DNA of 64,000 nucleotides from an uncultured Verrucomicrobiota bacterium (lineage in GTDB: Bacteria > Verrucomicrobiota > Verrucomicrobiia > Limisphaerales > UBA8199), in assembly GCA_964446585.1 (NCBI GenBank), contig CAYUPI010000005.1, forward strand, positions 12,593 to 76,592, written 5' to 3'. The number at the start of each line of letters is the position of its first letter. Within the stretch, counting starts at the first letter, position 1. A program made the position numbers and the translations under genes. Of the stretch, positions 7,101 to 55,502 are shown in pieces. The notes beneath the pieces were generated by a model. It was given only the letters and a program-made list of their open reading frames with translations. It ran no database searches and was not told the origin of the DNA.

Positions 7101-9003
7101 CACAGTTTTCCGAGATGGTCCCGCCCTGAGCAATGAAGCTGTCCGAATTGGTGGCGGGGGCAGGGGCGGAGGAACCAGCGCGGACTGCCACGTTCGGCGG
7201 ACAGGTGATGGTTGGCGGGGTCGTGTCGTTGACCGTGATGATCTGGTTGCAACTTTGACTATTGCTGCACAAATCCGATACCAGATACGTCCGAGTAATG
7301 ATGAATCTGCTGGGGCAGGTCTGATTGTTCGTCGCGTCGCTGGAAGCGACCGTCACTGGGTCGCCGCAATTTTCCGAGATGGCGCCGCCCTGGGCAATAA
7401 AGCCGGCCGAGTCGGTGGCCGGCGACGGCACGACCGAGGCACACTGCACGGTCACGTTTGTCGGGCAGGTAATTGTGGGCGTCGTCGTATCGTTGACTGT
7501 GATCGTCTGGTCGCACATTTGAGAGTTGCTGCACTGGTCGGTCACGGTGTAGGTGCGAGTGATGGTAAAGCGGCTGGGGCAGATCTGGTTGTTGGTCGCG
7601 TCGGTGGAACTGATTGTCACTCCGCCGCCGCAGTTTTCCGAGATGGTCCCGCCCTGGGCGATAAAGCCCGCGGAGTCGGTGGCCGGGGTTGGCACCGCCG
7701 AGGCGCATTGCACCGTAACATTCGTCGGACAGCTAATCGCGGGAGCCGTCGTGTCGTTGATCGTGATGGTCTGATCGCACATCTCAGCATTGCCGCAAGT
7801 GTCTGCCACCGTATAACTGCGCGTGATGGTGAAGCGGTTGGGACAGGTCTGGTTGATCGTCGCATCGGTGGAACTGACTGTCACTCCTCCGCCGCAGTTT
7901 TCCGAGATGGTCCCTCCCTGGGCGATAAAACCCGCGGAATCGGTCGCTGGTGCGGGTACAGCGGAGCCACACTGGACAGTGACGTTCGTCGGGCAGTTGA
8001 TTGCGGGCGCGGTCGTATCATTGACCGTGATGGTCTGGTTGCACGACTGGATATTGCCGCACAGATCCCTCACGGTATAGGTCCGGGTGATGGTGAAGCG
8101 GTTGGGGCAAGTCTGGTTGTTCGTGGCGTCGGCTGAATTGAACTGCAGCACTGAGACGGGGCAGTCGTCAGAGATCGTGCCCCCCTGGGCGATGAAACTC
8201 GTCGAATCGTTCGCCGCCGCCGGCAGGGCCGAGGCGCATTGCATGGTCACGTTCGTTGGGCAAGTGATCGCGAGAACAAATGGGGGCACCGTAATCGGCG
8301 TCGCGTCCAGCCGGACATTGTCCATATATATAGCCGCTGGAATGGTAGCATCGCTCCCGCTGGTGCCGGTCAAACGAATGATCAGCGGCGAACCGACCAA
8401 CGGGTGGTTGGGGGCAATCACATATTGGTTAACGGAATCGACAAAACTGTTCGCCGCGGGCGTTTGATGGTCGGTGACGGTCGGAGCCAGCAGCACTCCT
8501 CCCGCGAGCAAGTCAATTCTGTAATTGCCAAAAGTGAAATGCTTGTCCGCCCCTACCGCCACCGTGAGGGTGTACCGCCGGTTTCCCTCCAGGTTGCCGA
8601 GCGTTCCGGTGTTCGTGATCGAAGTGCTTGGAGTATTACGAAAAGTCAGTGCCTGGGCCCCGGCGGCTGGGGCGGGGAGCGACCCGGACATGGCCGCGCC
8701 GGTGAACTGAGATGCCGTCGGGTTAATCACCTCGTAATCGGTCAACGTCGAGTCGTAAATGGGGTTGCCCGTGGGTACCAATGTCCACCCCGGCACAGTG
8801 TGGGTAGTATCCCCGTCACCTAGTACGGGGAGCTCAAAACTAAAGTTGTCAATCGTGATCGGAGCGGCGTGCGCCACCTTGCCCAGCCCAAACCAAATCA
8901 GACACGAAGCAAGAATAGCAGCCGGGCAGAAAACTTTCCGGCAATTTGGCAGCTTCATCCGGAGCATTTCAGTTTTTCCCGGAAGGGATACATTCTGTCT
9001 CAA
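4111..9003 (-). CDS. Giant secreted repeat protein (adhesin/glycan-binding-like) with five Cys-rich ~88-aa Ig/HYR-like modules and a CBM6/35-like segment
   Basis: 1630-aa ORF with an N-terminal signal peptide (CPAAILASCLIWFGLGKVAHA). Five tandem modules follow the pattern CPTNVTVQC...FIAQGGTISENCGG...ITRTYTVxDxCGNxxxCxQxITVNDTTxP. A CBM6-like stretch reads VVLIEAEDYNYDSGNFQDN...GDWMNYTRTFPSGNYNVYLRAAS. The true start may be an internal Met (MLRMKL or MKLPNC). Confidence 0.85.
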   Translation of the reverse strand: MRQNVSLPGKTEMLRMKLPNCRKVFCPAAILASCLIWFGLGKVAHAAPITIDNFSFELPVLGDGDTTHTVPGWTLVPTGNPIYDSTLTDYEVINPTASQFTGAAMSGSLPAPAAGAQALTFRNTPSTSITNTGTLGNLEGNRRYTLTVAVGADKHFTFGNYRIDLLAGGVLLAPTVTDHQTPAANSFVDSVNQYVIAPNHPLVGSPLIIRLTGTSGSDATIPAAIYMDNVRLDATPITVPPFVLAITCPTNVTMQCASALPAAANDSTSFIAQGGTISDDCPVSVLQFNSADATNNQTCPNRFTITRTYTVRDLCGNIQSCNQTITVNDTTAPAINCPTNVTVQCGSAVPAPATDSAGFIAQGGTISENCGGGVTVSSTDATINQTCPNRFTITRSYTVADTCGNAEMCDQTITINDTTAPAISCPTNVTVQCASAVPTPATDSAGFIAQGGTISENCGGGVTISSTDATNNQICPSRFTITRTYTVTDQCSNSQMCDQTITVNDTTTPTITCPTNVTVQCASVVPSPATDSAGFIAQGGAISENCGDPVTVASSDATNNQTCPSRFIITRTYLVSDLCSNSQSCNQIITVNDTTPPTITCPPNVAVRAGSSAPAPATNSDSFIAQGGTISENCGGSVTVTSTDSPGSQSTTRRYRVTDMCGNFSTCDQLIFFQSPTVSQDFNSGPAAEAGWFHYSPATEGGQSPTWTFPDDGSGGFAYRMMGPPMNCNGLFNRGGSYRTEQYTDFFQAVDILHYASNSVDSLAIIGARITTPGALQTGGYYVAYSLGGPRARQQVMLPLEFSGEINVSEPDIYTGGAAFISQFSPSKQFRMSFLAANDVFTAELYDRTDLLEPIARIRFRNGPTATAAHPSGENLLGWFNLDFNSLCDFTFDNYYAGADPATPIGFPGTPQVVNVTPRPQTLFYSPPQNGSNITFMATTLNLNAVNTNALKLFLNGDDVSDQLVISDTSNPFSSSFFVRYTGVLATNQIYQGQIIALDGSGLGTTNNWVFDTFTASGVVLIEAEDYNYDSGNFQDNPPVSGLDDTTTADTQTSPGNQVNGNGIGYYDLAGTPDVDFHAVFPRLFRTQQYRSSDLVSTAQGLNFTGDTPRPDHVAVNVPDYYVSFMNPGDWMNYTRTFPSGNYNVYLRAASQGRQDVRFDSVTSGSTTSNQTTSIRGQFLVPNTGSSSRYRYVPLSDAAGNIQTLGISGPATFRLNANQVRSGRVAGARLTDLELNYLLFVPTTASPSSGAWIASASPSAGSDNFAPDSAVNIAIRTGYTGLDCPNSIQLRFDGSNVTGSATIACTSSEGAGATVSYRPPGLLLPNSVHTLSVVFADGSGAQSNYWTFTVDPSIPLLDAGDALASVSDSSFTVQVQKGPNDDSAGCPGVGSFPNTIARAERQLAGELIDPSTGQPWPNEAAGTNSGFYTEPNAVNYESCGNSVGFIPGDTTYPGIVCDPNQSPPTHFAIAATIKLQLAQGVFRMGVNSDDQFKVTAGGPDGTNVYLGSSETFPGTRDDGQFDFAVATNGVYEFRLVQEQGSGGANCEWYWVNRTTGVRELVKPLTVELESSATIDGPYSFEPTALIDPSAKTITVPKSGNARFYRLRSTTALRLNLSRFSGDNVVLNYSQ
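6980..8290 (-). repeat. Five tandem ~264-bp coding repeats inside the giant protein gene
   Basis: Blocks recur on the plus strand with a ~264-nt period, for example ccgccgcagttttccgagatggtcccgccctgggcgataaagcccgcggagtcggt. By eye the units are roughly four-fifths identical (not computed). Off-frame ORFs such as 7553..7774, 7823..8080 and 8087..8467 repeat MMVKRLGQVWL for the same reason. Confidence 0.85.
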
Positions 9004-19751: not shown

Positions 19752-19796
19752 GCATTTGCGCGTTCGGAGCGCGGTTGCAAAATCACTTTAAGTGTC

Positions 19797-19816
19797 GGAG
19801 CCGACGTAAGGAGGCT
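19797..19816. repeat. Single arm of the GCCGACGTAAGGAGGCT hairpin repeat family
   Basis: The sequence ggagccgacgtaaggaggct matches the arms of the hairpins at 49151..49244 and 55421..55502. No partner arm is adjacent. Confidence 0.6.
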
Positions 19817-22036: not shown

Positions 22037-22137
22037 AGTCGGCGTAAGGCATTGTAGGAGACGACGTGAGGAGTCTCCGATTATGGCGTTTCGACCAACG
22101 TTGGTGTCGTTTGCCAACAAATTGATTAGAGTCTCCT

Positions 22138-22374
22138 CACGGGCGTGTTGTCCAGATCCTATGAGGGTAGGGCGCGCTGTCCCCAGCGCGCAGCGATGCG
22201 GTCCCAACCTGCGATTTTGCTCGGAAACTGGGGTGTTCGTTGGCGCGCTGGATACATATATCAGAAAATCTGTCATTTTCGCGAAGATTTATTGTGCAAA
22301 CGCAGATGGGCGACGCGCTGGGACAGCGCGCCCTACCTTTTGGACCTCGCGCCATTTGGGCAACACGCCCTCAC
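22138..22374. repeat. MITE-like element, same family as 19856..20027
   Basis: The left arm is cacgggcgtgttgtccagatcctatgagggtagggcgcgctgtccccagcgcgc. The right arm is gcgacgcgctgggacagcgcgccctaccttttggacctcgcgccatttgggcaacacgccctcac, which is its near reverse complement. It lies in the divergent intergenic region between the lipoprotein and AMP-ligase genes. Confidence 0.8.
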
Positions 22375-22498
22375 TTCGTCTCCTACAGTCACAAACTGGC
22401 GACCTCTGGGCAGACTTTCTCACTGGCCTTGCAATTGGCCGTTGGCAATTCATGTTACGGCTTGCCGCAGAAACTATCCGCGCGCAACCTGACTGACA

Positions 22499-28836: not shown

Positions 28837-31800
28837 TCATTCGGCGGGCCAGATCGGGACGAACTGATACCACTGATCGAGGTGCTGACGAATGAGCGGC
28901 TCGAACGCGCGCAGGATGTCCTGGGCGAGCTGCTGGCGGGCCTGGCGATCGCGCAGGACGGCGCGGTCATAAGGGATCGCCGGCAAAACGTGAGCCGCGT
29001 ACGTCCGGGACGTCCGGGGCAGACACACGGGCAATAAAACGCACCCGGAGGCGCGGGCCAACTCAGCCGCCGCGATTGAGGCGTCGAAGCGTCTGCCGAA
29101 AAGCCTCACGCTGATCGGCGCCGTTGGCGGGGGACGATCCACCAGCAATGCGACCGTGGCGCCCCCTTCAAGGCGTTTGATGATCTGCAAAAACGCGAAT
29201 GGATCTTCACCCATCACAAGTGTCTCGACATTCCACCGTTGTCGCGCGACCTGGCGGAGCCGCGTAAAAGCCTCGGTCGGTTCCGGCAGCGTAATGACGT
29301 GCAGCGTCACGCCCCGACGGGCGAGCCACGGCACGCCAAATTCCCAATTGCCCAGATGGGCTGACAGCAACAAGACGCCGCGCTTTTGGCTGCGCGCCGC
29401 CTCAAAATGCTCCCAGCCCGTATTCTCACCCAACAGATCCTCGATGGGCAGTCCGGCCTCGTAGCGCCAGAGATCGACCAGCTTGACTGCAAATTGTTGA
29501 AACAGGTTGCGAGCACTTCGCCGGGCATGGTCAACATCACCGCCGCAGACAGGTAGAAAGTTTTGGATGACAATTTCACGCCGGCGCCTGGCGAGAAGCC
29601 AATAAAGATGCGCCAAAAACTGACCGAGGGCAGCGCAAAGTCTGGATGGTAAAACGCGCGCCAGCCAGAGCCCGAGGCGCCAGAGCTCGAAGCGGTAGAG
29701 CGTCGAAGGGGCCGGGGGGCGAGGGGCGAGGGGCGAGGGGCGAGGGGCGAAATCCAAGCGGCCATCGGGTCCAACGGGTCCAACGTAGGAGGGAGCCATC
29801 TTTTCACCACGTGCTGCTCGCGCGTGGCTCCGGTGCCACCAGACTGGCAGCAGAAAAATGGAGATGAGCATGTTTGCGCCGATGCCGACGGCGCAGACTC
29901 GGCCCAGGCTCCCCATGCCGGCATTGGTCGAGAAAGCCAGCGAGCCGAACCCGGCACAGGCGGTTCCGCCACAAAGCAGCAGCGCGCGACCCACAGAACG
30001 GTAGGCCATCTGCAAATCTCCCAGATGCCGGCGCAGGGCCAACTGCATGAAGATGCTGTAATCCACGCCCGTGCCAAGGATCAGCGGCACCGCCATTAGA
30101 TTAAGCAGGTTCCAGGACCAGCCCGCCAGCCGCATGACGGTAAGCAAACAGAGTCCGCTTAATGCAAGGACAGCGAGGCTGAGCAGAACTTCGGCCAGCC
30201 GCCGAAATGCCAGCCCGAGCGAAAGCAGAACCAGACAGACCATCGGCGCGAGGACCAGCCACATGTTGGTCTTGACGCGCGAGAAGATTGCGCCGCCGAG
30301 CAATTCCCAGCCCGAGAGCCACGCACCTTGCCGAAGCAATTCGGATTGGAGAATCGACAGACGTGATTCGTTTTCCCGCCCAGCATCCGTTAACCGCTCG
30401 ATTAGCCCGAGCGCAAACTGATTTGTCGCGCCACGTGCAGTTGCTTTTTCAAGTATCCATTGCACCACTTGATTCGACGGCAAGAAAACGCCAGACGTCT
30501 GACTGGCCTCGCGCCAGGTGTCGAGCATTTGTTCAGTAAGACCCAGTGCATTCTCCGTAAGTCCATTGGCCAGCGCGGCCTGTCTCAAGAGGCCGCGTTC
30601 GGCGACCAAGTGTCGAGCGCCGGCAAGATTCGCGGCCTGAAAATCCGGCCGTGGCCAAAGAGCGGTCGGCAGAGCAAAAGCGGTGATAAGATTGTTGGAT
30701 ACAGCGCCCTTGAGCACGAGTTCGACCGCGTCGAGGTGGTGTGCGACCTCGTCTTCGTTTCGGCCGCCGATAATAAGCCAAGCTGGGTCCCGGCCCTGGT
30801 TGAGCTCCTTCTTGATCTCATCCAGCGCGCCATACGCCAGGCTGTCGCGCGGGCGCAGAGAGTTCGCCGTCGGATCCACCAGGGGCAAACCGCGCAGCAG
30901 AACCAAGGTGGCGAGAATGAGTAAGGAAGCGGTAACGACAAAGACCAGCCGCGTCCGGCCGCGGCTAACGACAGTGCTCGAGACTGGCGCTTGGCTGCTC
31001 GCCTGTTCTGGCTGCCAGGATGCCCTCAGAGGCTCCTGCATGATCTTTTGTTCTCTTCTCTCGGGAAACAGCGGCGGGAGGAATTCGAAGATCATGATGC
31101 AAGCGGAAAGCCCAACGCCGAGCCCGACGAGCGTTCCAAGCTGGCCGAGACCGGGCAAGCCACCGAAATTGAGCACTAGAAACGCGCAGATGGTGGTGAC
31201 CGCCGCCCAAAAAATGCTTGGCGCAATCTCCGCCCGGATCTCGGGGATGCTCAGGTCCGGCTGGGCCAGCGCCTCCTGGTAGTGCACGACCGCATAGTCC
31301 ACCGCCAACCCCAGCAGAATCGCGGCAAAACCCATGCTCACGACATTGATTGTGCGAAAGATCAGCCCGCCCAGTGCCAGCGTGCTGCCCAGGATAAGCG
31401 CCAGCAGCGTCAGCAGCCAGAACATCGGTTTCAGGCGACGGTGAGCCAGCCAGAACAGACAGGCGATGATGAGCGCCGTGCCACCGACCGAGTTTCGAAC
31501 ATCGTGCTGCATTCCGCTGGCGACCTCAGCCACAAAGGCAGGACGTCCGGTATATCCGACCGCGACACTGGCCGGCGGTTGAACCTTTTTGATCTCTTCA
31601 AGCCATTGGTCGCACTCGCGGTAAGTGGGCAGGTCGCGGGCAGCCTTCACGTAAAGCACCCGGAACGTGCCGTCAGTTGAACTAAAAGCTTCCTGGCCCT
31701 GGGTGGAGCTCAGGCCGGGAGCTGCAGCAGCAATCTCTTCCGGCAGACGCGTCAGGCCGAAGGGATCGTATTGCAGCCGGGCGATCTCCTCGGGAGACAA

Positions 31801-44818: not shown

Positions 44819-46407
44819 TGAATCCTCCGGCGCAGGACGCATACGACGTCGCCATCATCGGCGGCGCGTTGTCGGGCGCGGCAGCGGCCATACTCTTGCT
44901 GGGCGAGCGGCCGGAGCTGAAGATTTTGATTGTGGAAAGAAGCGAAAGCTTCGGCCGACGGGTGGGTGAAGCGACGGTGGAGGTGAGCGGCTATTTTCTA
45001 GGGAGGATGCTGGGATTAACCGGTCACCTCAATGAGGCCCACCTCGTGAAGCAAGGGATGCGGTTCTGGTTCTTCAACGATAAGGCACGAACGATGGCCG
45101 ATTGCGCGGAAATCGGCGGCCGTTATCTTTCCCGAGTTCCCGCGTATCAAGTCGATCGGGCGGTGCTCGACGAGGAAGTTCTAGCGCGAGCGCAAGCTGC
45201 GGGCGCAGAGTTCTGGCGGCCGGCGTTAGTCAGCCGGGTGGATCTGGCGGCTGGCGGGCGACAGCTCCTTAAGGTGCGGTACCAGGAGCGAACTCGCGAG
45301 GTTTCCGCCCGGTGGCTGGTTGATGCGTCCGGGGTGGCAGCCGTGCTCGCGCGGCAGGAAGGTTGGTGGCGGCCAAATACCGAGCACCCGACGACGGCGG
45401 TTTGGGCGCGGTGGACGGGCGTTAAGGACTGGGACGGACTCGAGTTGACAACGAAATTCCCGGAATGGGCCATGGCCTGCCACGGCATTCGCAACACGGC
45501 GACGAATCATTTTGTTGGCAATGGCTGGTGGGCCTGGTGCATTCCTCTAAAGGGAGGAGACGTCAGCATTGGGGTCGTGTTCGATCAACGGTTCGTGCAA
45601 TGGCCGGAGGACGGCTCGCTCGGACAGAGGTTGAAGGATTTCCTCGCGCAGCACCCGGTCGCGCGGGAAATCATGGCAGACGCGCGCTGGCGCGAGGGCG
45701 ACGTGCACTGGCGCAAAAGCCTGCCTTATTACAGCACAACCTTCGCGGGCGACGGATTCGCTTTGGTCGGCGATGCGGCGGCGTTCCTCGATCCGTTTTA
45801 CAGCCCCGGCATGGATTGGATTGCTTTCACTTGCACCGCCGCCTGCAAGCTCATCTTGGCGGAGCGGCGAGGGGAAGCTCTGGCGCCCCTGCTGGCGCGG
45901 CACAATCGCGATTTTGCGCGCAGTTACCAATGGTGGTTTCAAGCCATTTACCAGGACAAGTACGAATACATGGGCGAATTTGACCTGCTGCGGGTGGCAT
46001 TCCTGCTCGACGCCGGCCTCTACACGATGGGCGTGGCTTCGCAGCCTTTCAAACGAGGCGCGGTGGCGTTGACCGAACCGGTTTATTCCACGCCGCCCTC
46101 GGTTCCATTTTTCCATTTGATGCGCAGGTATAATCGGCGCCTGGCGCGGATGGCTCGCGCGCGCCGGCTTGGAGACCGGCTAGGACGACGCAATGCGGGC
46201 CGGCGCTTCATGTTCCAGGGATACACGTTCGCTCCAGCCAGCAGTGTTCACATTGCCAAAGGCGTGGCCGCCTGGGCCTGGCTCGAACTCAAAGAGGGAT
46301 GGAGGAGCTGGTTCGCGGCGGAAAGCTCCAAGCTCCAAATCCCAAACTCCAAACATATTCCAAGCACCAAATCCCAAACTCCGCAGCCCGCGGCATGCGA
46401 AATCTGA
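44818..46407 (+). CDS. Second FAD-dependent oxidoreductase with flavin-dependent halogenase signatures
   Basis: 529 aa with GxGxxG (DVAIIGGALSGAAAA), WxWxIP (GWWAWCIP) and FxxPxxSxG (FLDPFYSPG). The start overlaps the upstream stop (TAATG). The last ~25 codons (SKLQIPNSKHIPSTKSQTPQPAACEI) read into a repeat element. Confidence 0.8.
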   Translation: MNPPAQDAYDVAIIGGALSGAAAAILLLGERPELKILIVERSESFGRRVGEATVEVSGYFLGRMLGLTGHLNEAHLVKQGMRFWFFNDKARTMADCAEIGGRYLSRVPAYQVDRAVLDEEVLARAQAAGAEFWRPALVSRVDLAAGGRQLLKVRYQERTREVSARWLVDASGVAAVLARQEGWWRPNTEHPTTAVWARWTGVKDWDGLELTTKFPEWAMACHGIRNTATNHFVGNGWWAWCIPLKGGDVSIGVVFDQRFVQWPEDGSLGQRLKDFLAQHPVAREIMADARWREGDVHWRKSLPYYSTTFAGDGFALVGDAAAFLDPFYSPGMDWIAFTCTAACKLILAERRGEALAPLLARHNRDFARSYQWWFQAIYQDKYEYMGEFDLLRVAFLLDAGLYTMGVASQPFKRGAVALTEPVYSTPPSVPFFHLMRRYNRRLARMARARRLGDRLGRRNAGRRFMFQGYTFAPASSVHIAKGVAAWAWLELKEGWRSWFAAESSKLQIPNSKHIPSTKSQTPQPAACEI

Positions 46408-47565: not shown

Positions 47566-47880
47566 AGAAGGCCGAAGGCCGAAATCCGAAGACCGAAGAA
47601 AGCTCGAAACCCGAATGCCGAAATCCGACCCGCCCTCCGTAGCGCCAGAGCATGCCGTGAAGCCTCCGCGCGCGAGAATGCCTTCGTTTCCAACAGTGGC
47701 CCGGGCACCGATACTGCGGAGGGTGGAAGGAAATCCGAATGACGAAGCCCAAATGGTGGATTGCAAATTGCGAGAGCAGGAGAAAAGCTCAAGTCTGGAT
47801 CCTGTTCGGTCGGTGCTGACTATCGGCGCCCGCCGTTCGGACTTCCTTTAGGCTTCGGATTTCTTTCGAGCTTCTTTGCG
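47566..47880. repeat. MITE-like element with GAAATCCGAA-rich inverted arms
   Basis: The left arm is agaaggccgaaggccgaaatccgaagaccgaagaaagctcgaaacccgaatgccgaaatccgacc. The right arm, gcgcccgccgttcggacttcctttaggcttcggatttctttcgagcttctttgcg, is an approximate reverse complement. The central copy is ggaaggaaatccgaatgacgaagccc. Confidence 0.65.
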
Positions 47881-49150: not shown

Positions 49151-49244
49151 TGTAGGAGCCGACGTTGGAAGGCTCACTTCAAATGCGGAGTGAGGAGTGA
49201 GGAGTGCGGAATTAGATCAGAGCCTCCTGACGTCCGCTGCTACA
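49151..49244. repeat. Hairpin repeat (GTAGNAGCCGACGTNGGAGGCTCA arms) between convergent genes; possible bidirectional terminator
   Basis: The arms are tgtaggagccgacgttggaaggctca (49151-49176) and gagcctcctgacgtccgctgctaca (49220-49244). It is the same family as 55421..55502. Confidence 0.75.
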
Positions 49245-49263: not shown

Positions 49264-52026
49264 TCAGCCCTCCAGTGCGCGGAGCGATGCCAGCAGGTGG
49301 TCCTTCTTGGCCTGCCACTCCGCGAGCCGGCTCTGATGTTCCGCGAGCACATTCGCGGGCACCTTCTGGATGAAGTTTGGGTTCGCTAGCTTTTGTTCTT
49401 CTTTCGTGATTTCCGTGTCGGCCTTTTCCAATTCCTTCTTGAGTCGTGCTTTCTCGGCTTCCACGTCAACCAGGCCTTCCAGGGGGAGGTACAACTCACC
49501 CAGGCTCGAATGAACTGCAGGCGTGCCTTTCTTCGCCTCGTAATTGGGTTCGACTACCAGCTTTTCCGCGTTGAGCAGGAGCTTCAGCACGTCCACGTCA
49601 TGCTGCGAGATGCCATTGAGCGACTTGAGGATGAAAATCACTTTCTTGTTAGCCGGAATTTTTGCCTCGCGTCGGAGGTTGCGGCCTTGGGTCACGAGTT
49701 CGTATTTCGCATCGACCATCTCCAGATAGCAATCGTCCAGCCCGTAGTGTCCGCGAATGTCTTCATCAAGCGGCTTGGGCCAGGGCGCAAACAGAATGGT
49801 CTTGCCCCCCTGAGCTTCCGGCATGTCCTTGGCGTAACCCATCCCGTGCCACAGCTCCTCGGTGATAAACGGAAGGAAAGGATGGAATAAACGCAGCGTG
49901 TGCGAGAGCACGAAGTCGATTACCGCCAGAGCGTTGGAACGTGCTGCAGATTGGGACGTTGGAGCGTTGGAGCGTTGGAGCGTTGAAGCGTGGTCCGGTT
50001 CAACGGTTTGACGGTTTAACGATTCAACGGGCTTTGCGAGGACTGCCTTGCTCGCTTCGACGTACCAGTCGCAGTATTCGCTCCAGAAAAAGCGGTAGAG
50101 GGTCTGCGTAGCTTCGTTGAAGCGATACTCGGCGAACGACGTGGTGATTTCACGGATGGCGCTGTCGAGCTTGAGCAGAATCCACTTGTCGTCGGTGCTG
50201 AGCAGCGTGCGGTCGATTTCTCCTTGGACCTCGCCGCCTTGCATTTGTCGGAAACGGCAGGCGTTCCAGAGCTTGTTGCAGAAGTTGCGGCCCAGTTCGA
50301 CGTCCTTTTCGTCGAACATAACATCCTGGCCCAACGGCGCGCTGCGCATGGTGCCGAAGCGCACCGCGTCGCCGCCGTATTTGGCGATGAGATCGAGGGG
50401 ATCGGGGGAGTTGCCGAGGCTCTTGCTCATCTTGCGGCCGATTTTATCGCGGATGATGCCGGTGAAATAAACGTTCCGGAAAGGCAGGTTCCCCATGTAT
50501 TCGTAACCGGCCATGATCATGCGGGCAACCCAGAAGAAAATGATCTCCGGCGCGGTGACCAGATCGGTCGTGGGATAGAATTTCTTGAGAGTCTCGGTTT
50601 GCTGCGGCCAGCCCATCGTGGCGAAGGGCCACAGCCAGGAACTGGCCCAGGTGTCGAGGACGTCGGGGTCTTGCTCCCAACCCGGACCGGGACACTCGAT
50701 CTGGCAACGTGCGTTTTCGGGCGCCGCGGGATCGGCGGTGGAGCTTCGGTTGTACCACACCGGCACGCGGTGCCCCCACCAAAGCTGGCGACTGATGCAC
50801 CAGTCCCTCAAGTTGTGCATCCAGTGGGTGTACGTCTTGGTCCATCGTTCGGGATGAAATTGGATCCGGCCTTCTTCCACGGCTTTCGTTGAAGCCTCGA
50901 CGCTCGGATATCTCATGAACCATTGCTCGCTCAGATACGGCTCGATGGGGACATGGCTGCGCTGGCTATAACCGACGCTGTGGACGTAATCCTCAATTTT
51001 GAACATGAGCCTTTGTTCGCTCAGTTCCTCGATGACCGCTTTGCGCGCTTCCATGCGATCGAGGCCAGCGAAATCTTCTCCGGCCTCGGTGGTCATTGTG
51101 CCATCGGGTGCGATCACCACGGTCACCGGGAGCTTGTGGCGGAGCCCCATCTCATAATCGTTCGGATCGTGGGCGGGGGTGACTTTGACGCAGCCTGTGC
51201 CGAATTTTGGATCAACGAAATCATCCGCAATGATGGGAATAGGTTTGTTTTGGAGGGGCAGGAGGCAACGGCGGCCAACTAGTTTCGCATACCGCGGGTC
51301 TCTTGGATTCACCGCCACCGCTTCGTCGCCGAGCATGGTTTCGGGGCGAGTGGTTGCGACGACAACAAACTCATCAGGCCTGGGCTGGCCTTTGTCGTCG
51401 AGGAGAGGATACTTGAGATGCCAGAGCTGGCCTTTCTCCTCGATCATATCCACTTCCTCGTCAGACAATGCTGTTCGAGCGGCTGGGTCCCAATTGACCA
51501 TTCTCTTACCGCGATAAATCGTCCCTTTTTTGTAAAGATCGACGAAGACGCTCTGGACGCATTTGGAGTATTCCGGGTCCATCGTGAAGCGTTCGCGGCT
51601 CCAATCGCACGAGCAGCCGAGTTTCTTGAGCTGCTGAATTATGATGCCGCCGTGCTTTTCCTTCCAGGCCCAGACGTGTTCAAGAAACTTTTCGCGGCCG
51701 AGATCATCGCGGTGCTTCATCACGCGCTCTTTGCGGAGCGCCTTTTCGACGACTGCCTGGGTCGCAATCCCGGCATGGTCGGTGCCAGGCAGCCACAACA
51801 CTTCTTTTCCGTCCATGCGGGCCTTGCGGGCCAGGATGTCCTGGATGGTGTTGTTGAGGACATGGCCCATGTGCAATTGGCCGGTGACGTTCGGCGGCGG
51901 GATGACGATCGAATAGGCGGGCTTGGGTGAGTTGGGATCGGCGACGAAACACTTCTGGTCGAGCCAGAACTGGTACCATTTTTCTTCTACGGCCTGTGGT
52001 TCGTAGGCCTTGGGGATCTCAGACAT
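49264..52026 (-). CDS. valS: Valine--tRNA ligase
   Basis: 920 aa. It starts MSEIPKAYEPQAVEEKWYQFW, has the HIGH-type motif (PPPNVTGQLHMGH), the KMSKS motif (KMSKSLGN) and a C-terminal coiled coil. It carries an in-frame repeat-derived insertion at about 49930..50035. Confidence 0.95.
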   Translation of the reverse strand: MSEIPKAYEPQAVEEKWYQFWLDQKCFVADPNSPKPAYSIVIPPPNVTGQLHMGHVLNNTIQDILARKARMDGKEVLWLPGTDHAGIATQAVVEKALRKERVMKHRDDLGREKFLEHVWAWKEKHGGIIIQQLKKLGCSCDWSRERFTMDPEYSKCVQSVFVDLYKKGTIYRGKRMVNWDPAARTALSDEEVDMIEEKGQLWHLKYPLLDDKGQPRPDEFVVVATTRPETMLGDEAVAVNPRDPRYAKLVGRRCLLPLQNKPIPIIADDFVDPKFGTGCVKVTPAHDPNDYEMGLRHKLPVTVVIAPDGTMTTEAGEDFAGLDRMEARKAVIEELSEQRLMFKIEDYVHSVGYSQRSHVPIEPYLSEQWFMRYPSVEASTKAVEEGRIQFHPERWTKTYTHWMHNLRDWCISRQLWWGHRVPVWYNRSSTADPAAPENARCQIECPGPGWEQDPDVLDTWASSWLWPFATMGWPQQTETLKKFYPTTDLVTAPEIIFFWVARMIMAGYEYMGNLPFRNVYFTGIIRDKIGRKMSKSLGNSPDPLDLIAKYGGDAVRFGTMRSAPLGQDVMFDEKDVELGRNFCNKLWNACRFRQMQGGEVQGEIDRTLLSTDDKWILLKLDSAIREITTSFAEYRFNEATQTLYRFFWSEYCDWYVEASKAVLAKPVESLNRQTVEPDHASTLQRSNAPTSQSAARSNALAVIDFVLSHTLRLFHPFLPFITEELWHGMGYAKDMPEAQGGKTILFAPWPKPLDEDIRGHYGLDDCYLEMVDAKYELVTQGRNLRREAKIPANKKVIFILKSLNGISQHDVDVLKLLLNAEKLVVEPNYEAKKGTPAVHSSLGELYLPLEGLVDVEAEKARLKKELEKADTEITKEEQKLANPNFIQKVPANVLAEHQSRLAEWQAKKDHLLASLRALEG

Positions 52027-54842: not shown

Positions 54843-55424
54843 GTGAATGAACCAAACGTCAACCGGGCGTTCTACCTGCCTCGACTGCAGCGCGAGCATT
54901 ATCAAGGCGACGCTGTGGTTCACTGGACAGTTCCTTTCTCGCACCGGCGCCAAGGCTGGCTCGATGAACGTTTTCACGCTGGGTTTCGTGAGTTGATGCT
55001 ACACGCCGCCGCGCGGGAGGCGCTGCTCTGCCCGACGTATTGCTTGATGCCGGATCACTTGCACCTCGTCTGAATGGAGCTGCGTTTGGATTCCGACCAA
55101 CAGAACGGCATGGCCTTCCTGCGAACACATCTCGAGTCCAAGCTCGCTCCGGAGAAATTCCAGCATCAGGCGCACGACCACGTACTCAAAGAGGAAGAGC
55201 GCCGTCGGAACGCATTTGCCCGCGTCTGCAACTATGTCCTTGAAAATCCGCTCCAGGCAGAACTGGTGAAGCATCCGGTAGAATGGGCATTCAGCGGTGC
55301 AGTTGTGCCCGGGTATCCGACGTTGCATCCTTTGCAAAAAGAATTCTGGTCGAGATTTTGGAAGCTCTATGGTCAGGAGAAGCACCCGGACACGGGGCAA
55401 ATTATTCGTCCGCCCATTCGGTAG
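54843..55424 (+). pseudogene. HUH/Y1 (IS200/RAYT-like) transposase-family gene interrupted by one in-frame TGA
   Basis: ORFs 54741..55073 and 55074..55424 are in the same frame, separated only by a TGA at 55071-55073. The product reads ...YCLMPDHLHLV*MELRLDSDQ..., with the HUH motif (DHLHLV) and the Tyr motif (VCNYVLENPLQAELV). The probable start is the GTG at 54843 (MNEPNVNRAFYLPRL). The stop codon lies inside the hairpin repeat at 55421. Confidence 0.7.
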
Positions 55425-55502
55425 CAGCCGACGTAAGGAGGCTCACTTCTCCGCGGAAGGTTCCCCGCAAAGAGAAGTGAGCCTCCTTACGTCGGCTGCT
55501 AC
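55421..55502. repeat. Perfect 31-bp inverted repeat hairpin (REP-like)
   Basis: The left arm is gtagcagccgacgtaaggaggctcacttctc (55421-55451). A 20-nt loop follows, then the right arm gagaagtgagcctccttacgtcggctgctac (55472-55502). Confidence 0.9.

What the first reader, a model, noticed from the sequence alone, without database searches (positions are those of the whole stretch)
49930..50035. 8-nt-periodic repeat element inserted in frame within valS
- The essential Val-tRNA ligase gene contains two runs of 8-nt periodic repeats on the plus strand. The first is gggacgtt-ggagcgtt-ggagcgtt-ggagcgtt-gaagcgtg (49953-49992). The second is gttcaacg-gtttgacg-gtttaacg-attcaacg (49998-50029).
- These translate on the coding strand to ...PVESLNRQTVEPDHASTLQRSNAPTSQSAARSN...
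- The segment lies between the anticodon-binding helix (DWYVEASK) and the conserved LRLFHPFLPFITEELW block.
- Compared with E. coli ValRS from memory, this interval is about 20-25 aa longer here.
- The STLQRSNA / LNRQTV peptide pattern is what this kind of CAACG-rich intergenic repeat yields when translated.
- So a repeat element appears to have been domesticated, or at least tolerated, as a surface loop in an aminoacyl-tRNA synthetase.
- An 8-nt unit preserves the frame only in multiples of three units, so copy-number changes would usually be lethal.
Basis: partly seen in the sequence, partly recalled or inferred. Interest (0 to 1): 0.55.

Follow-up and report, generated by a model that had tools for sequence, protein, structure and literature searches.

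The report
Hairpin repeat inserted in valS loop
A roughly 75-90-base hairpin-forming DNA repeat, of a kind that normally sits between genes in Verrucomicrobia, is inserted in frame into a surface turn of the essential valine-tRNA ligase, and related bacteria have filled the same turn repeatedly with different repeats.

Summary
valS (49264-52026, minus strand) contains two period-8 arrays (49957-49991 and 49996-50030). They are inverted copies of each other and form a 4 x (7 bp + 1 mismatch) hairpin.

They encode residues 664-693, which have no counterpart in T. thermophilus ValRS (1GAX). The interval between DWYVEASK and LRLFHPF is 50 aa here. It is 25 aa in E. coli and in 27 of 81 sequences from close relatives, which represent the "empty site".

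The same octamer unit (CGTTG[A/G]AG) forms dispersed, mostly intergenic arrays and array-loop-inverted-array hairpins in many Verrucomicrobiota genomes and some other phyla.

In relatives the same turn holds at least three unrelated repeat types: octamer hairpins, GTAG-tagged REP-like hairpins that also occur intergenically in this window, and 7/8-nt arrays. Empty and filled sites interleave on the tree, so the site was colonised repeatedly.

The window's insert is old. It is shared with a subclade, and insert identity is 46-58% against 77-78% in the flanks. It is hydrophilic, predicted disordered, and shows signs of array homogenisation.

Best reading: a tolerated selfish or slippage-prone repeat, not a domesticated module. 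This is the Rickettsia-RPE / intragenic-REP phenomenon, but with an apparently undescribed periodic-arm hairpin.

The parts
49264..52026 (-). valS, valine-tRNA ligase, 920 aa
   Evidence: ORF list and translation. Homologues named valyl-tRNA synthetase with Pfam tRNA-synt_1 / Anticodon_1 / Val_tRNA-synt_C. 1GAX match E = 1e-207.
49948..50037 (-). Inserted segment: codons 664-693 (AKPVESLNRQTVEPDHASTLQRSNAPTSQS). This is 30 aa relative to T. thermophilus ValRS and a net 25 aa relative to the empty-site state of relatives and to E. coli.
   Evidence: Gap in the 1GAX alignment between query residues 663 and 694. Empty-site relatives have a 25-aa interval, as does E. coli. Model segment 668-688 has pLDDT < 50 and lies between helices 636-663 and 688-713.
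49953..49992 (.). Arm 1: octamer array (+ strand GGGACGTT GGAGCGTT x3 GAAGCGTG; mRNA strand GCTCCAAC-type units), encoding STLQRSNAPTSQ
   Evidence: TRF 49957-49991, period 8, 4.4 copies, 96%; direct-repeat families D1 and D2.
49991..49995 (.). Hairpin loop (TGGTC) between the two arms
   Evidence: Inverted repeat I1 has 5 nt between the arms; folds.
49996..50030 (.). Arm 2: inverted octamer array (+ strand GTTCAACG GTTTGACG GTTTAACG ATTCAACG; mRNA strand GTTGAATC GTTAAACC GTCAAACC GTTGAACC), encoding VESLNRQTVEP. The third mRNA unit reads CGT CAA where the consensus unit would give CGT TGA.
   Evidence: TRF 49996-50030, period 8, 4.4 copies, 77%; I1; reading frame.
49928..49943 (.). Unit-like stretch in the native flank (AGAGCGTTGGAACGTG; codons ARSNAL). 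Subclade relatives have GCCAATACCC (RRANTL) where the window has TCCAACGCTC.
   Evidence: Pattern match with 3 mismatches; D1 reference copy; subclade alignment.
49152..49243 (.). GTAG-tagged REP-like hairpin directly 3' of the valS stop codon, with a GGAGTGA x3.4 array (49187-49210) in its loop. It belongs to the family found inside the valS turn of relatives.
   Evidence: Core matches at 49152 (+) and 49230-49243 (-); fold -39 kcal/mol; TRF; 'QSLLTSAAT' word.
55421..55502 (.). Intergenic, near-perfect GTAG-tagged REP-like hairpin (GGTAGCAGCCGACGTAAGGAGGCTC...), the reference copy of that family in this window
   Evidence: (the 161-nt stretch containing it folds at -93.7 kcal/mol).

Best explanation
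What it is. The segment is a passenger DNA repeat. It is a hairpin whose two arms are inverted tandem arrays of an octamer (core GTTGAA / TTCAAC plus two variable bases). It belongs to a family of short-period arrays and 'periodic-arm' hairpins that populate intergenic DNA in Verrucomicrobiota.

How it got there. A copy entered the tip of a helix-turn-helix junction in the helical anticodon-binding domain of ValRS, in an ancestor of this subclade. The mechanism of entry is not established. It could be REP-like transposition or replication template-switching.

Why it survived (inferred). It preserves the reading frame. It is read in the orientation that has no stop codons and encodes a hydrophilic, disordered peptide. 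It sits at a turn where extra length does not disturb the fold.

What happens since. It evolves under relaxed constraint. Its arrays are re-homogenised by slippage or conversion.

The same turn has been filled independently, many times, by this and by unrelated repeat families in related lineages. It is therefore the most permissive landing site in the gene. There is no evidence of a function at the protein or RNA level.
For: Insertion is shown. There is a gap against 1GAX at residues 664-693. The interval is 25 aa in E. coli and in 27 of 81 sequences from relatives, whose turn is the conserved AVLxGxDAARKAN.

Dispersed family is shown. 51 of those loci are from Verrucomicrobiota, and nine come from a single MAG. 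Most are intergenic, next to stop or start codons, and 20 of 124 arrays have the inverted array downstream. An intergenic octamer hairpin with the same architecture lies just upstream of valS in relative L156, in a sample not selected for repeats.

Recurrent colonisation is shown. The same turn carries octamer hairpins, GTAG REP-like hairpins identical in family to window copies at 55421-55502 and 49152-49243, and 7/8-nt arrays. The four nearest relatives of L194 (87-90% identical in the flanks) are all empty. Fitch parsimony needs about 17 empty/filled changes. 26 period 7-9 arrays lie in 8.9 kb of loop DNA, against 79 in the other roughly 405 kb.

Coding filter. Among the 124 arrays, the convincing in-gene cases (valS in L038; the TPR membrane protein in L012, L030 and L095; L013) all have the C-rich strand as coding strand. 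The used frame has mean Kyte-Doolittle hydropathy -1.15, against -0.04 for antisense frames. The third sense unit avoids TGA.

Relaxed constraint and age. The insert has the same length in L133, L140 and L150. Insert identity is 46-58% against 77-78% in the flanks.

Homogenisation. The window has three identical units, and the unit sequence has spread into the native flank.

Structure. The insert has pLDDT < 50 and lies between helices at pLDDT about 80-88.

No RNA element. There is no Rfam match and no promoter- or terminator-like site.
Against: No second octamer array occurs in the 64 kb available from this genome, so family membership rests on related genomes. The insertion mechanism was not observed: there are no target-site duplications, and no transposase was examined. 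The four subclade members keep exactly the same insert length, and the window keeps a strong hairpin on the antisense strand (z = -5.3). Either could hint at some constraint. The tree is a neighbour-joining tree on about 500 aa without support values, and precise hairpin deletions could inflate the count of gains. The structure model is poor overall (mean pLDDT 58).
Confidence: 0.8

Rival explanations
1. In-situ origin. The arrays grew by replication slippage from native valS sequence at this turn. No pre-existing element arrived from elsewhere.
For: The native flank (GCGAACACGCTG in empty sites) resembles the unit CAACGCTC. The window shows unit sequence spreading into that flank. Long simple-sequence repeats of 7 nt are thought to arise by polymerase slippage (PMC4679880). 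Several relatives carry plain 7/8-nt arrays with no second arm.
Against: Simple slippage does not make an inverted second arm. The same unit and the same array-loop-inverted-array architecture occur at many intergenic loci in many genomes. Empty sites show no proto-array. The same turn also holds GTAG hairpins that are plainly copies of an intergenic family.
Confidence: 0.12
2. Exaptation. The insert is maintained by selection, either as a functional peptide on ValRS or as a nucleic-acid hairpin such as an antisense RNA, an mRNA stability element or a pause element.
For: Insert length is conserved at 50 aa in four subclade members. The window has a strong, regular hairpin on the + strand. G:U pairs favour the antisense strand in 37 of 51 inserts.
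Against: Insert identity is only 46-58% against 77-78% in the flanks. Unrelated sequences occupy the same site, and a third of relatives have none. The insert is predicted disordered. There is no Rfam match and no promoter or terminator. The strand asymmetry is what A/C-rich hydrophilic codons would produce anyway.
Confidence: 0.07
3. Assembly or sequencing artefact in a metagenome-derived contig.
For: Tandem repeats often break or distort short-read assemblies, and several arrays in the scan sit at contig ends.
Against: The ORF is intact. Homologous same-length inserts occur in independent assemblies. Dozens of independent contigs carry in-frame inserts at this turn.
Confidence: 0.01

Closest known systems
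Rickettsia palindromic elements (RPE; Ogata et al. 2000, as cited in PMC3184786)
   Same: A dispersed palindromic repeat is inserted in frame inside protein-coding genes, including essential ones, without destroying them. It adds a peptide segment compatible with the fold.
   Different: RPEs are about 105-146 bp (PMC3184786) and are not built from tandem octamers. The host here is a free-living Verrucomicrobium rather than an intracellular alphaproteobacterium. Here one site has been hit repeatedly by several families. Sequence relatedness to RPEs was not tested.
Intragenic GTAG/CGTC-tagged REPs (Di Nocera et al. 2013, PMC3733652)
   Same: That paper reports REPs inside genes in several species, many in Opitutus terrae (Verrucomicrobia), and in tRNA synthetase genes of three species. 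The 'SRGNEA...SLLTSAAT' inserts in relatives' valS and the window hairpins at 55421 and 49152 start with GTAG and fit this class.
   Different: The window's own insert has no GTAG or CGTC tag. At 34 nt per arm it is longer than the 20-40 bp given for REPs, and its arms are periodic arrays with a mismatch every eighth base. No valS case and no multi-family hotspot is described there.
Long simple-sequence repeats with 7-nt units (cyanobacterial heptamer repeats; TAACTGA repeats of Beggiatoaceae, PMC4679880; GGGAATC / GGGGAYT repeats, PMC4692102)
   Same: Short-period tandem arrays, mostly intergenic and close to start or stop codons, with a patchy cross-phylum distribution and no known spreading mechanism. 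The octamer arrays found here behave the same way.
   Different: The unit here is 8 nt, not 7. Arrays commonly come as inverted pairs forming hairpins, whereas the TAACTGA study found 169 direct sets and one indirect repeat. This copy is read through as protein.
MITEs inserted in genes (e.g. Coxiella burnetii, PMC5896051; review PMC10969869)
   Same: Small non-autonomous inverted-repeat elements that can add peptide segments to proteins.
   Different: No terminal inverted repeats distinct from the body and no target-site duplication are visible at the junctions. The size is well below typical MITEs.

Membership tests
REP / REPIN (RAYT-associated repetitive extragenic palindromes) | Short (20-40 bp) imperfect palindrome forming a stem-loop | tested here: inconclusive
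   It does form a stem-loop. However, the arms are 34 nt each (74 nt in all) and are internally periodic, which is outside the size given in PMC3733652.
REP / REPIN (RAYT-associated repetitive extragenic palindromes) | GTAG or CGTC tetranucleotide tag at one end | tested here: not met
   The window's octamer hairpin begins GTTGAA... and ends ...TTCAAC-type on either strand, with no terminal GTAG or CGTC. By contrast, the other insert family in relatives and the window copies at 55421 and 49152 do start with GTAG.
REP / REPIN (RAYT-associated repetitive extragenic palindromes) | Many dispersed copies in the same genome | not testable with these tools
   Only 64 kb of this genome is available, and it holds no second octamer array. 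Related genomes have many: nine loci in MAG SMAG_U157 among a capped sample.
REP / REPIN (RAYT-associated repetitive extragenic palindromes) | Cognate RAYT (IS200/IS605-like tyrosine transposase) gene | not tested
   No transposase search was run on the window or on related loci.
Rickettsia-type palindromic elements in genes (RPE-like behaviour) | In-frame, stop-free insertion inside an otherwise conserved ORF | tested here: met
   The 920-aa ORF is intact, and the insert is delimited by 1GAX, E. coli and empty-site relatives.
Rickettsia-type palindromic elements in genes (RPE-like behaviour) | Insert lies at a surface-exposed position compatible with the fold | tested here: inconclusive
   It lies at a helix-turn-helix junction, with low pLDDT flanked by confident helices, and T. 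thermophilus has a tight turn there. The model is poor overall, and no tRNA complex was modelled.
Rickettsia-type palindromic elements in genes (RPE-like behaviour) | Sequence homology to RPE families | not tested
   No RPE sequences were compared. The resemblance is in behaviour only.
Short-period tandem arrays (long SSRs, heptamer-repeat type) | Head-to-tail copies of a 7-9-nt unit, at least 3 copies | tested here: met
   Two arrays of 4.4 copies, period 8.
Short-period tandem arrays (long SSRs, heptamer-repeat type) | Family members mainly intergenic, close to start or stop codons, with patchy phylogenetic spread | tested here: met
   Only 16 of 124 arrays have at least 100 stop-free codons on both sides, and several of those 16 are spurious. 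Many abut TGA/TAA stops or CAT (ATG on the other strand). Hits fall in Verrucomicrobiota (51), Chloroflexota (21), Bacteroidota (16) and others.
MITE | Terminal inverted repeats plus a target-site duplication | tested here: not met
   The junctions of filled and empty sites show insertion between the Gly and Thr codons of the turn, with no flanking direct duplication.

The most novel reading that the evidence does not exclude
Hairpins whose arms are inverted tandem arrays of a 7-8-nt unit (core GTTGAA) may be an undescribed, actively propagating class of bacterial repeat with cross-phylum reach. On this reading the ValRS helix-turn tip is a preferred integration target for this and other hairpin repeats, not merely a tolerant site. 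Surface loops of essential enzymes in Verrucomicrobia would then be continuously remodelled by hairpin DNA.
Probability: 0.2. Interest if true: 0.65.

Novelty: new variant of a known kind. Interest (0 to 1): 0.45.

Why it matters
This is a clean natural experiment on how selfish or slippage-prone DNA creates new protein sequence inside an essential, highly conserved enzyme. One turn of ValRS has an ancestral 25-aa state and dozens of independently filled states built from at least three repeat families. That gives a measurable picture of which insertions selection lets through: in frame, stop-free, hydrophilic, at a helix turn. It also flags a practical point. Peptide words such as TLQRSNA, SLLTSAAT and SRGNEA in Verrucomicrobia proteins mark translated repeats, not conserved motifs. 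The octamer periodic-arm hairpin appears not to be described and merits a genome-wide survey.

Tried and rejected
(1) Contig look-ups for the window's own protein and its closest relative gave no DNA. The 91%-identical allele P0002 could therefore only be compared as protein.

(2) My first test for 'array inside a gene' used total stop-free length. It was misleading, because the arrays lack stops in several frames and artificially extend neighbouring ORFs. I replaced it with a requirement of at least 100 stop-free codons on both sides.

(3) The AlphaFold2 model built from 40 close homologues is poor overall (mean pLDDT 58, pTM 0.40). I used it only locally and ran no fold searches.

(4) RNA-element readings were rejected. 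There is no Rfam match at E <= 1 and no promoter- or terminator-like site.

(5) Literal literature searches for the octamer array and its peptide found nothing.

(6) I considered the antisense-strand G:U bias as evidence for an antisense RNA. I set it aside because A/C-rich hydrophilic codons on the sense strand produce the same bias.

(7) Strict site-specific targeting is weakened by secondary ValRS sites that also hold arrays in some relatives.

(8) The window's genome was not among the 120 capped loci.
Full report
**Observation.** The window's minus-strand ORF 49264-52026 encodes a 920-aa valine-tRNA ligase. Tandem Repeats Finder reports two period-8 arrays: 49957-49991 (CGTTGGAG x4.4, 96% matches) and 49996-50030 (CGGTTCAA x4.4, 77%). 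Two-unit probes match this locus far more often than in shuffled sequence (6 matches against about 1 expected; 0 of 100 shuffles reach 6).

On the + strand, which is antisense to valS, they fold into four 7-bp blocks separated by single mismatches (RNA -48 kcal/mol, z = -5.25; DNA z = -5.37). The mRNA strand folds weakly (z = -1.8), because the G:U pairs of the + strand become A-C mismatches.

**It is an insertion.** T. thermophilus ValRS (1GAX) aligns to residues 3-663 and 694-908, leaving out AKPVESLNRQTVEPDHASTLQRSNAPTSQS. E. coli K-12 has 25 aa between DWYLELTK and LRLAHP; the window has 50. Among 80 relatives recovered from metagenomes with a loop-deleted query, plus the window itself (81 sequences), 27 have a conserved 25-aa interval (AVLxGxDAARKANTLAVIDFVLSHT), the empty site. 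The rest have 29-62 aa. The 120 closest database proteins span 22-71 aa for the same interval.

An AlphaFold2 model is poor overall, but it places confident helices at 636-663 and 688-713 and gives pLDDT < 50 for 668-688. This agrees with a tight helix-turn-helix junction in 1GAX.

**The repeat family.** 51 are from Verrucomicrobiota (nine from one MAG), 21 from Chloroflexota, 16 from Bacteroidota, and the rest are scattered, including isolates. Most arrays abut stop codons or lie just upstream of start codons. At least 20 of 124 are followed by the inverted array, giving the same hairpin architecture as in valS.

Only a few lie inside real genes. They include the same valS turn in another Verrucomicrobium (L038), one site of a TPR-containing membrane protein in three MAGs (L012, L030, L095), and L013. 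In all of these the C-rich strand is the coding strand. That is expected, because CGTTGAAG read as sense meets TGA within three units.

In a sample not selected for repeats (414 kb around relatives' valS plus the window), an intergenic octamer hairpin of the same build lies just upstream of valS in L156, and heptamer-armed hairpins occur in L188 and L152. The conserved core is GTTGAA/TTCAAC, with one or two variable bases.

**A hotspot.** Relatives' turns contain several insert types:
- Octamer hairpins: L191, L180, L195, L159, L135, L145 and others.
- A different, GTAG-tagged REP-like hairpin (GGTAGCAGCCGAGGT.ACGAGGCTC ... GAGCCTC.TCACCTCGGCTGCTAC), translated as SSRGNEA...QSLLTSAAT. It belongs to the same family as the window's intergenic hairpins at 55421-55502 and at 49152-49243, directly 3' of valS.
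- Plain 7- or 8-nt arrays (CACGCAA, GCATCAC, CCTCAAC, ATCCATCA).
- A non-repetitive 38-aa loop in one subclade.

Both main types join the native sequence between the Gly and Thr codons of the turn. On a neighbour-joining tree of about 500 flanking residues, empty and filled states interleave. Parsimony needs about 17 empty/filled changes. The four nearest relatives of L194 (87-90% identity) are all empty, and L189, L147 and L164 behave likewise.

Array density is 26 in 8.9 kb of loop DNA against 79 in the remaining roughly 405 kb. A few secondary ValRS sites also hold arrays in some relatives (after GHRVPVWY; WPFATMGW...KFYPT; near residue 595). The other long indels in ValRS are domain-like. 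The turn is therefore the dominant permissive site but not the only one, which favours tolerance over strict targeting.

**History of the window's copy.** L133, L140 and L150 share an insert of identical length that aligns without gaps. Insert identity to the window is 46-58%, against 77-78% in 360 nt of flanks. The insertion therefore predates this subclade and evolves under relaxed constraint.

Yet the window's 3' arm keeps three identical units. Unit sequence also replaces native flank: TCCAACGCTC where relatives have GCCAATACCC, at 49928-49943. The 91%-identical protein P0002 shows a different unit variant repeated through its array (TIQRFNDS against TLQRSNAP) and five more residues. These point to concerted evolution of the arrays by slippage or conversion (inference).

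In the sense arm, the unit that would read CGT TGA reads CGT CAA.

**Strand asymmetry.** Across 52 distinct inserts, the antisense strand folds better in 37 and worse in 14 (binomial p = 0.002, not corrected for relatedness). The used frame is strongly hydrophilic (mean Kyte-Doolittle -1.15, against -0.04 for antisense frames). The sense strand is A+C-rich: 0.58 on average and 0.66 in the window's insert, against 0.54 for the gene. I infer that protein-level filtering for hydrophilic codons explains the asymmetry. No Rfam family, promoter-like site or terminator-like site supports an RNA element.

**Comparison with what is known.** In-frame palindromic repeats in genes are established: Rickettsia RPEs (Ogata 2000, cited in PMC3184786), and GTAG/CGTC REPs inside genes, many in Opitutus terrae and some in tRNA synthetase genes (PMC3733652). 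Intergenic heptamer arrays with patchy cross-phylum distribution and no known mechanism are also described (PMC4679880, PMC4692102).

The window's element behaves like these but fails the REP tag test and the MITE test, and RPE homology was not tested. The octamer array and its peptide were not found verbatim in the searchable literature. I therefore class it as a new variant of a known kind. Two points go beyond the cited papers: the periodic-arm hairpin architecture, and the repeated multi-family colonisation of one turn of an essential enzyme.

**Limits.** Only 64 kb of this genome could be read, and it has no second octamer array. The scan of genomes was capped, so the taxon counts are indicative only. 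The tree lacks support values. The insertion mechanism is not shown.

Noticed in passing
window 55421-55502; 49152-49243; 19794-19815; 22054-22075 and 22373-22386: GTAG-tagged REP-like hairpins (core GTAGCAGCCGACGT), translated as '(Q)SLLTSAAT'. The 55421-55502 copy is a near-perfect palindrome. The 49152-49243 copy sits directly after the valS stop codon and may act as its transcript end.
   Followed up: partly
window 29707-29750, 46323-46400, 47567-47628, 49187-49210: Several intergenic 7-nt tandem arrays (AGGGGCG x6.1, CTCCAAA-type, CCGAAAT/CCGAAGG-type, GGAGTGA x3.4). Short-period arrays are a general feature of this genome's spacers, and one lies in the loop of a REP-like hairpin.
   Followed up: partly
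window 7220-8262: Tandem repeat with a 264-nt period, 3.9 copies, 76% matches (TRF score 1027). Presumably it is repeated domains in a large protein. Not examined.
   Followed up: no
L012 (Ca. Aquilonibacter), L030 (Verrucomicrobiota), L095 (Ca. Sulfotelmatobacter): The same octamer array is read in frame (QRFNASTL) at the same loop, LLLDFWPL-[..]-EKIPFFAL, of a polytopic membrane protein with C-terminal TPR repeats. It occurs in MAGs assigned to three different phyla, so this is a second recurrent in-gene site.
   Followed up: partly
ValRS relatives P0017, P0064, P0118 (reference positions 383-386 and 426-441): Domain-sized insertions of about 185 aa (Pfam PF18798 is listed for these proteins), present twice in P0118 (1268 aa). 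They are unrelated to the repeat-derived loop.
   Followed up: no
L144 2113-2139, L147 2041-2067; L141, L199, L189, L161 (about 235 aa upstream of the loop); L194 2459-2491: Secondary ValRS sites where short-period arrays are read in frame in some relatives, e.g. WPFATMGW-TGDDSQHSNTPTLQ-KFYPT and GHRVPVWY-RKSETRNQKSEI...
   Followed up: partly
L161 (metagenome contig Ga0137397_10065939), valS loop: An in-frame stop codon at the start of the loop (AI*SQKSD...). It is either a sequencing error or a pseudogenised valS.
   Followed up: no
L001-L120 (genome scan): The identical octamer array also occurs, usually once per genome in the capped sample, in isolates from distant phyla (Stenotrophomonas rhizophila, Arthrobacter wenxiniae, Chryseobacterium balustinum, Sorangium sp., Plectonema radiosum). 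It occurs at several loci in Chloroflexaceae MAGs. Whether this reflects transfer, convergence or chance was not tested.
   Followed up: no
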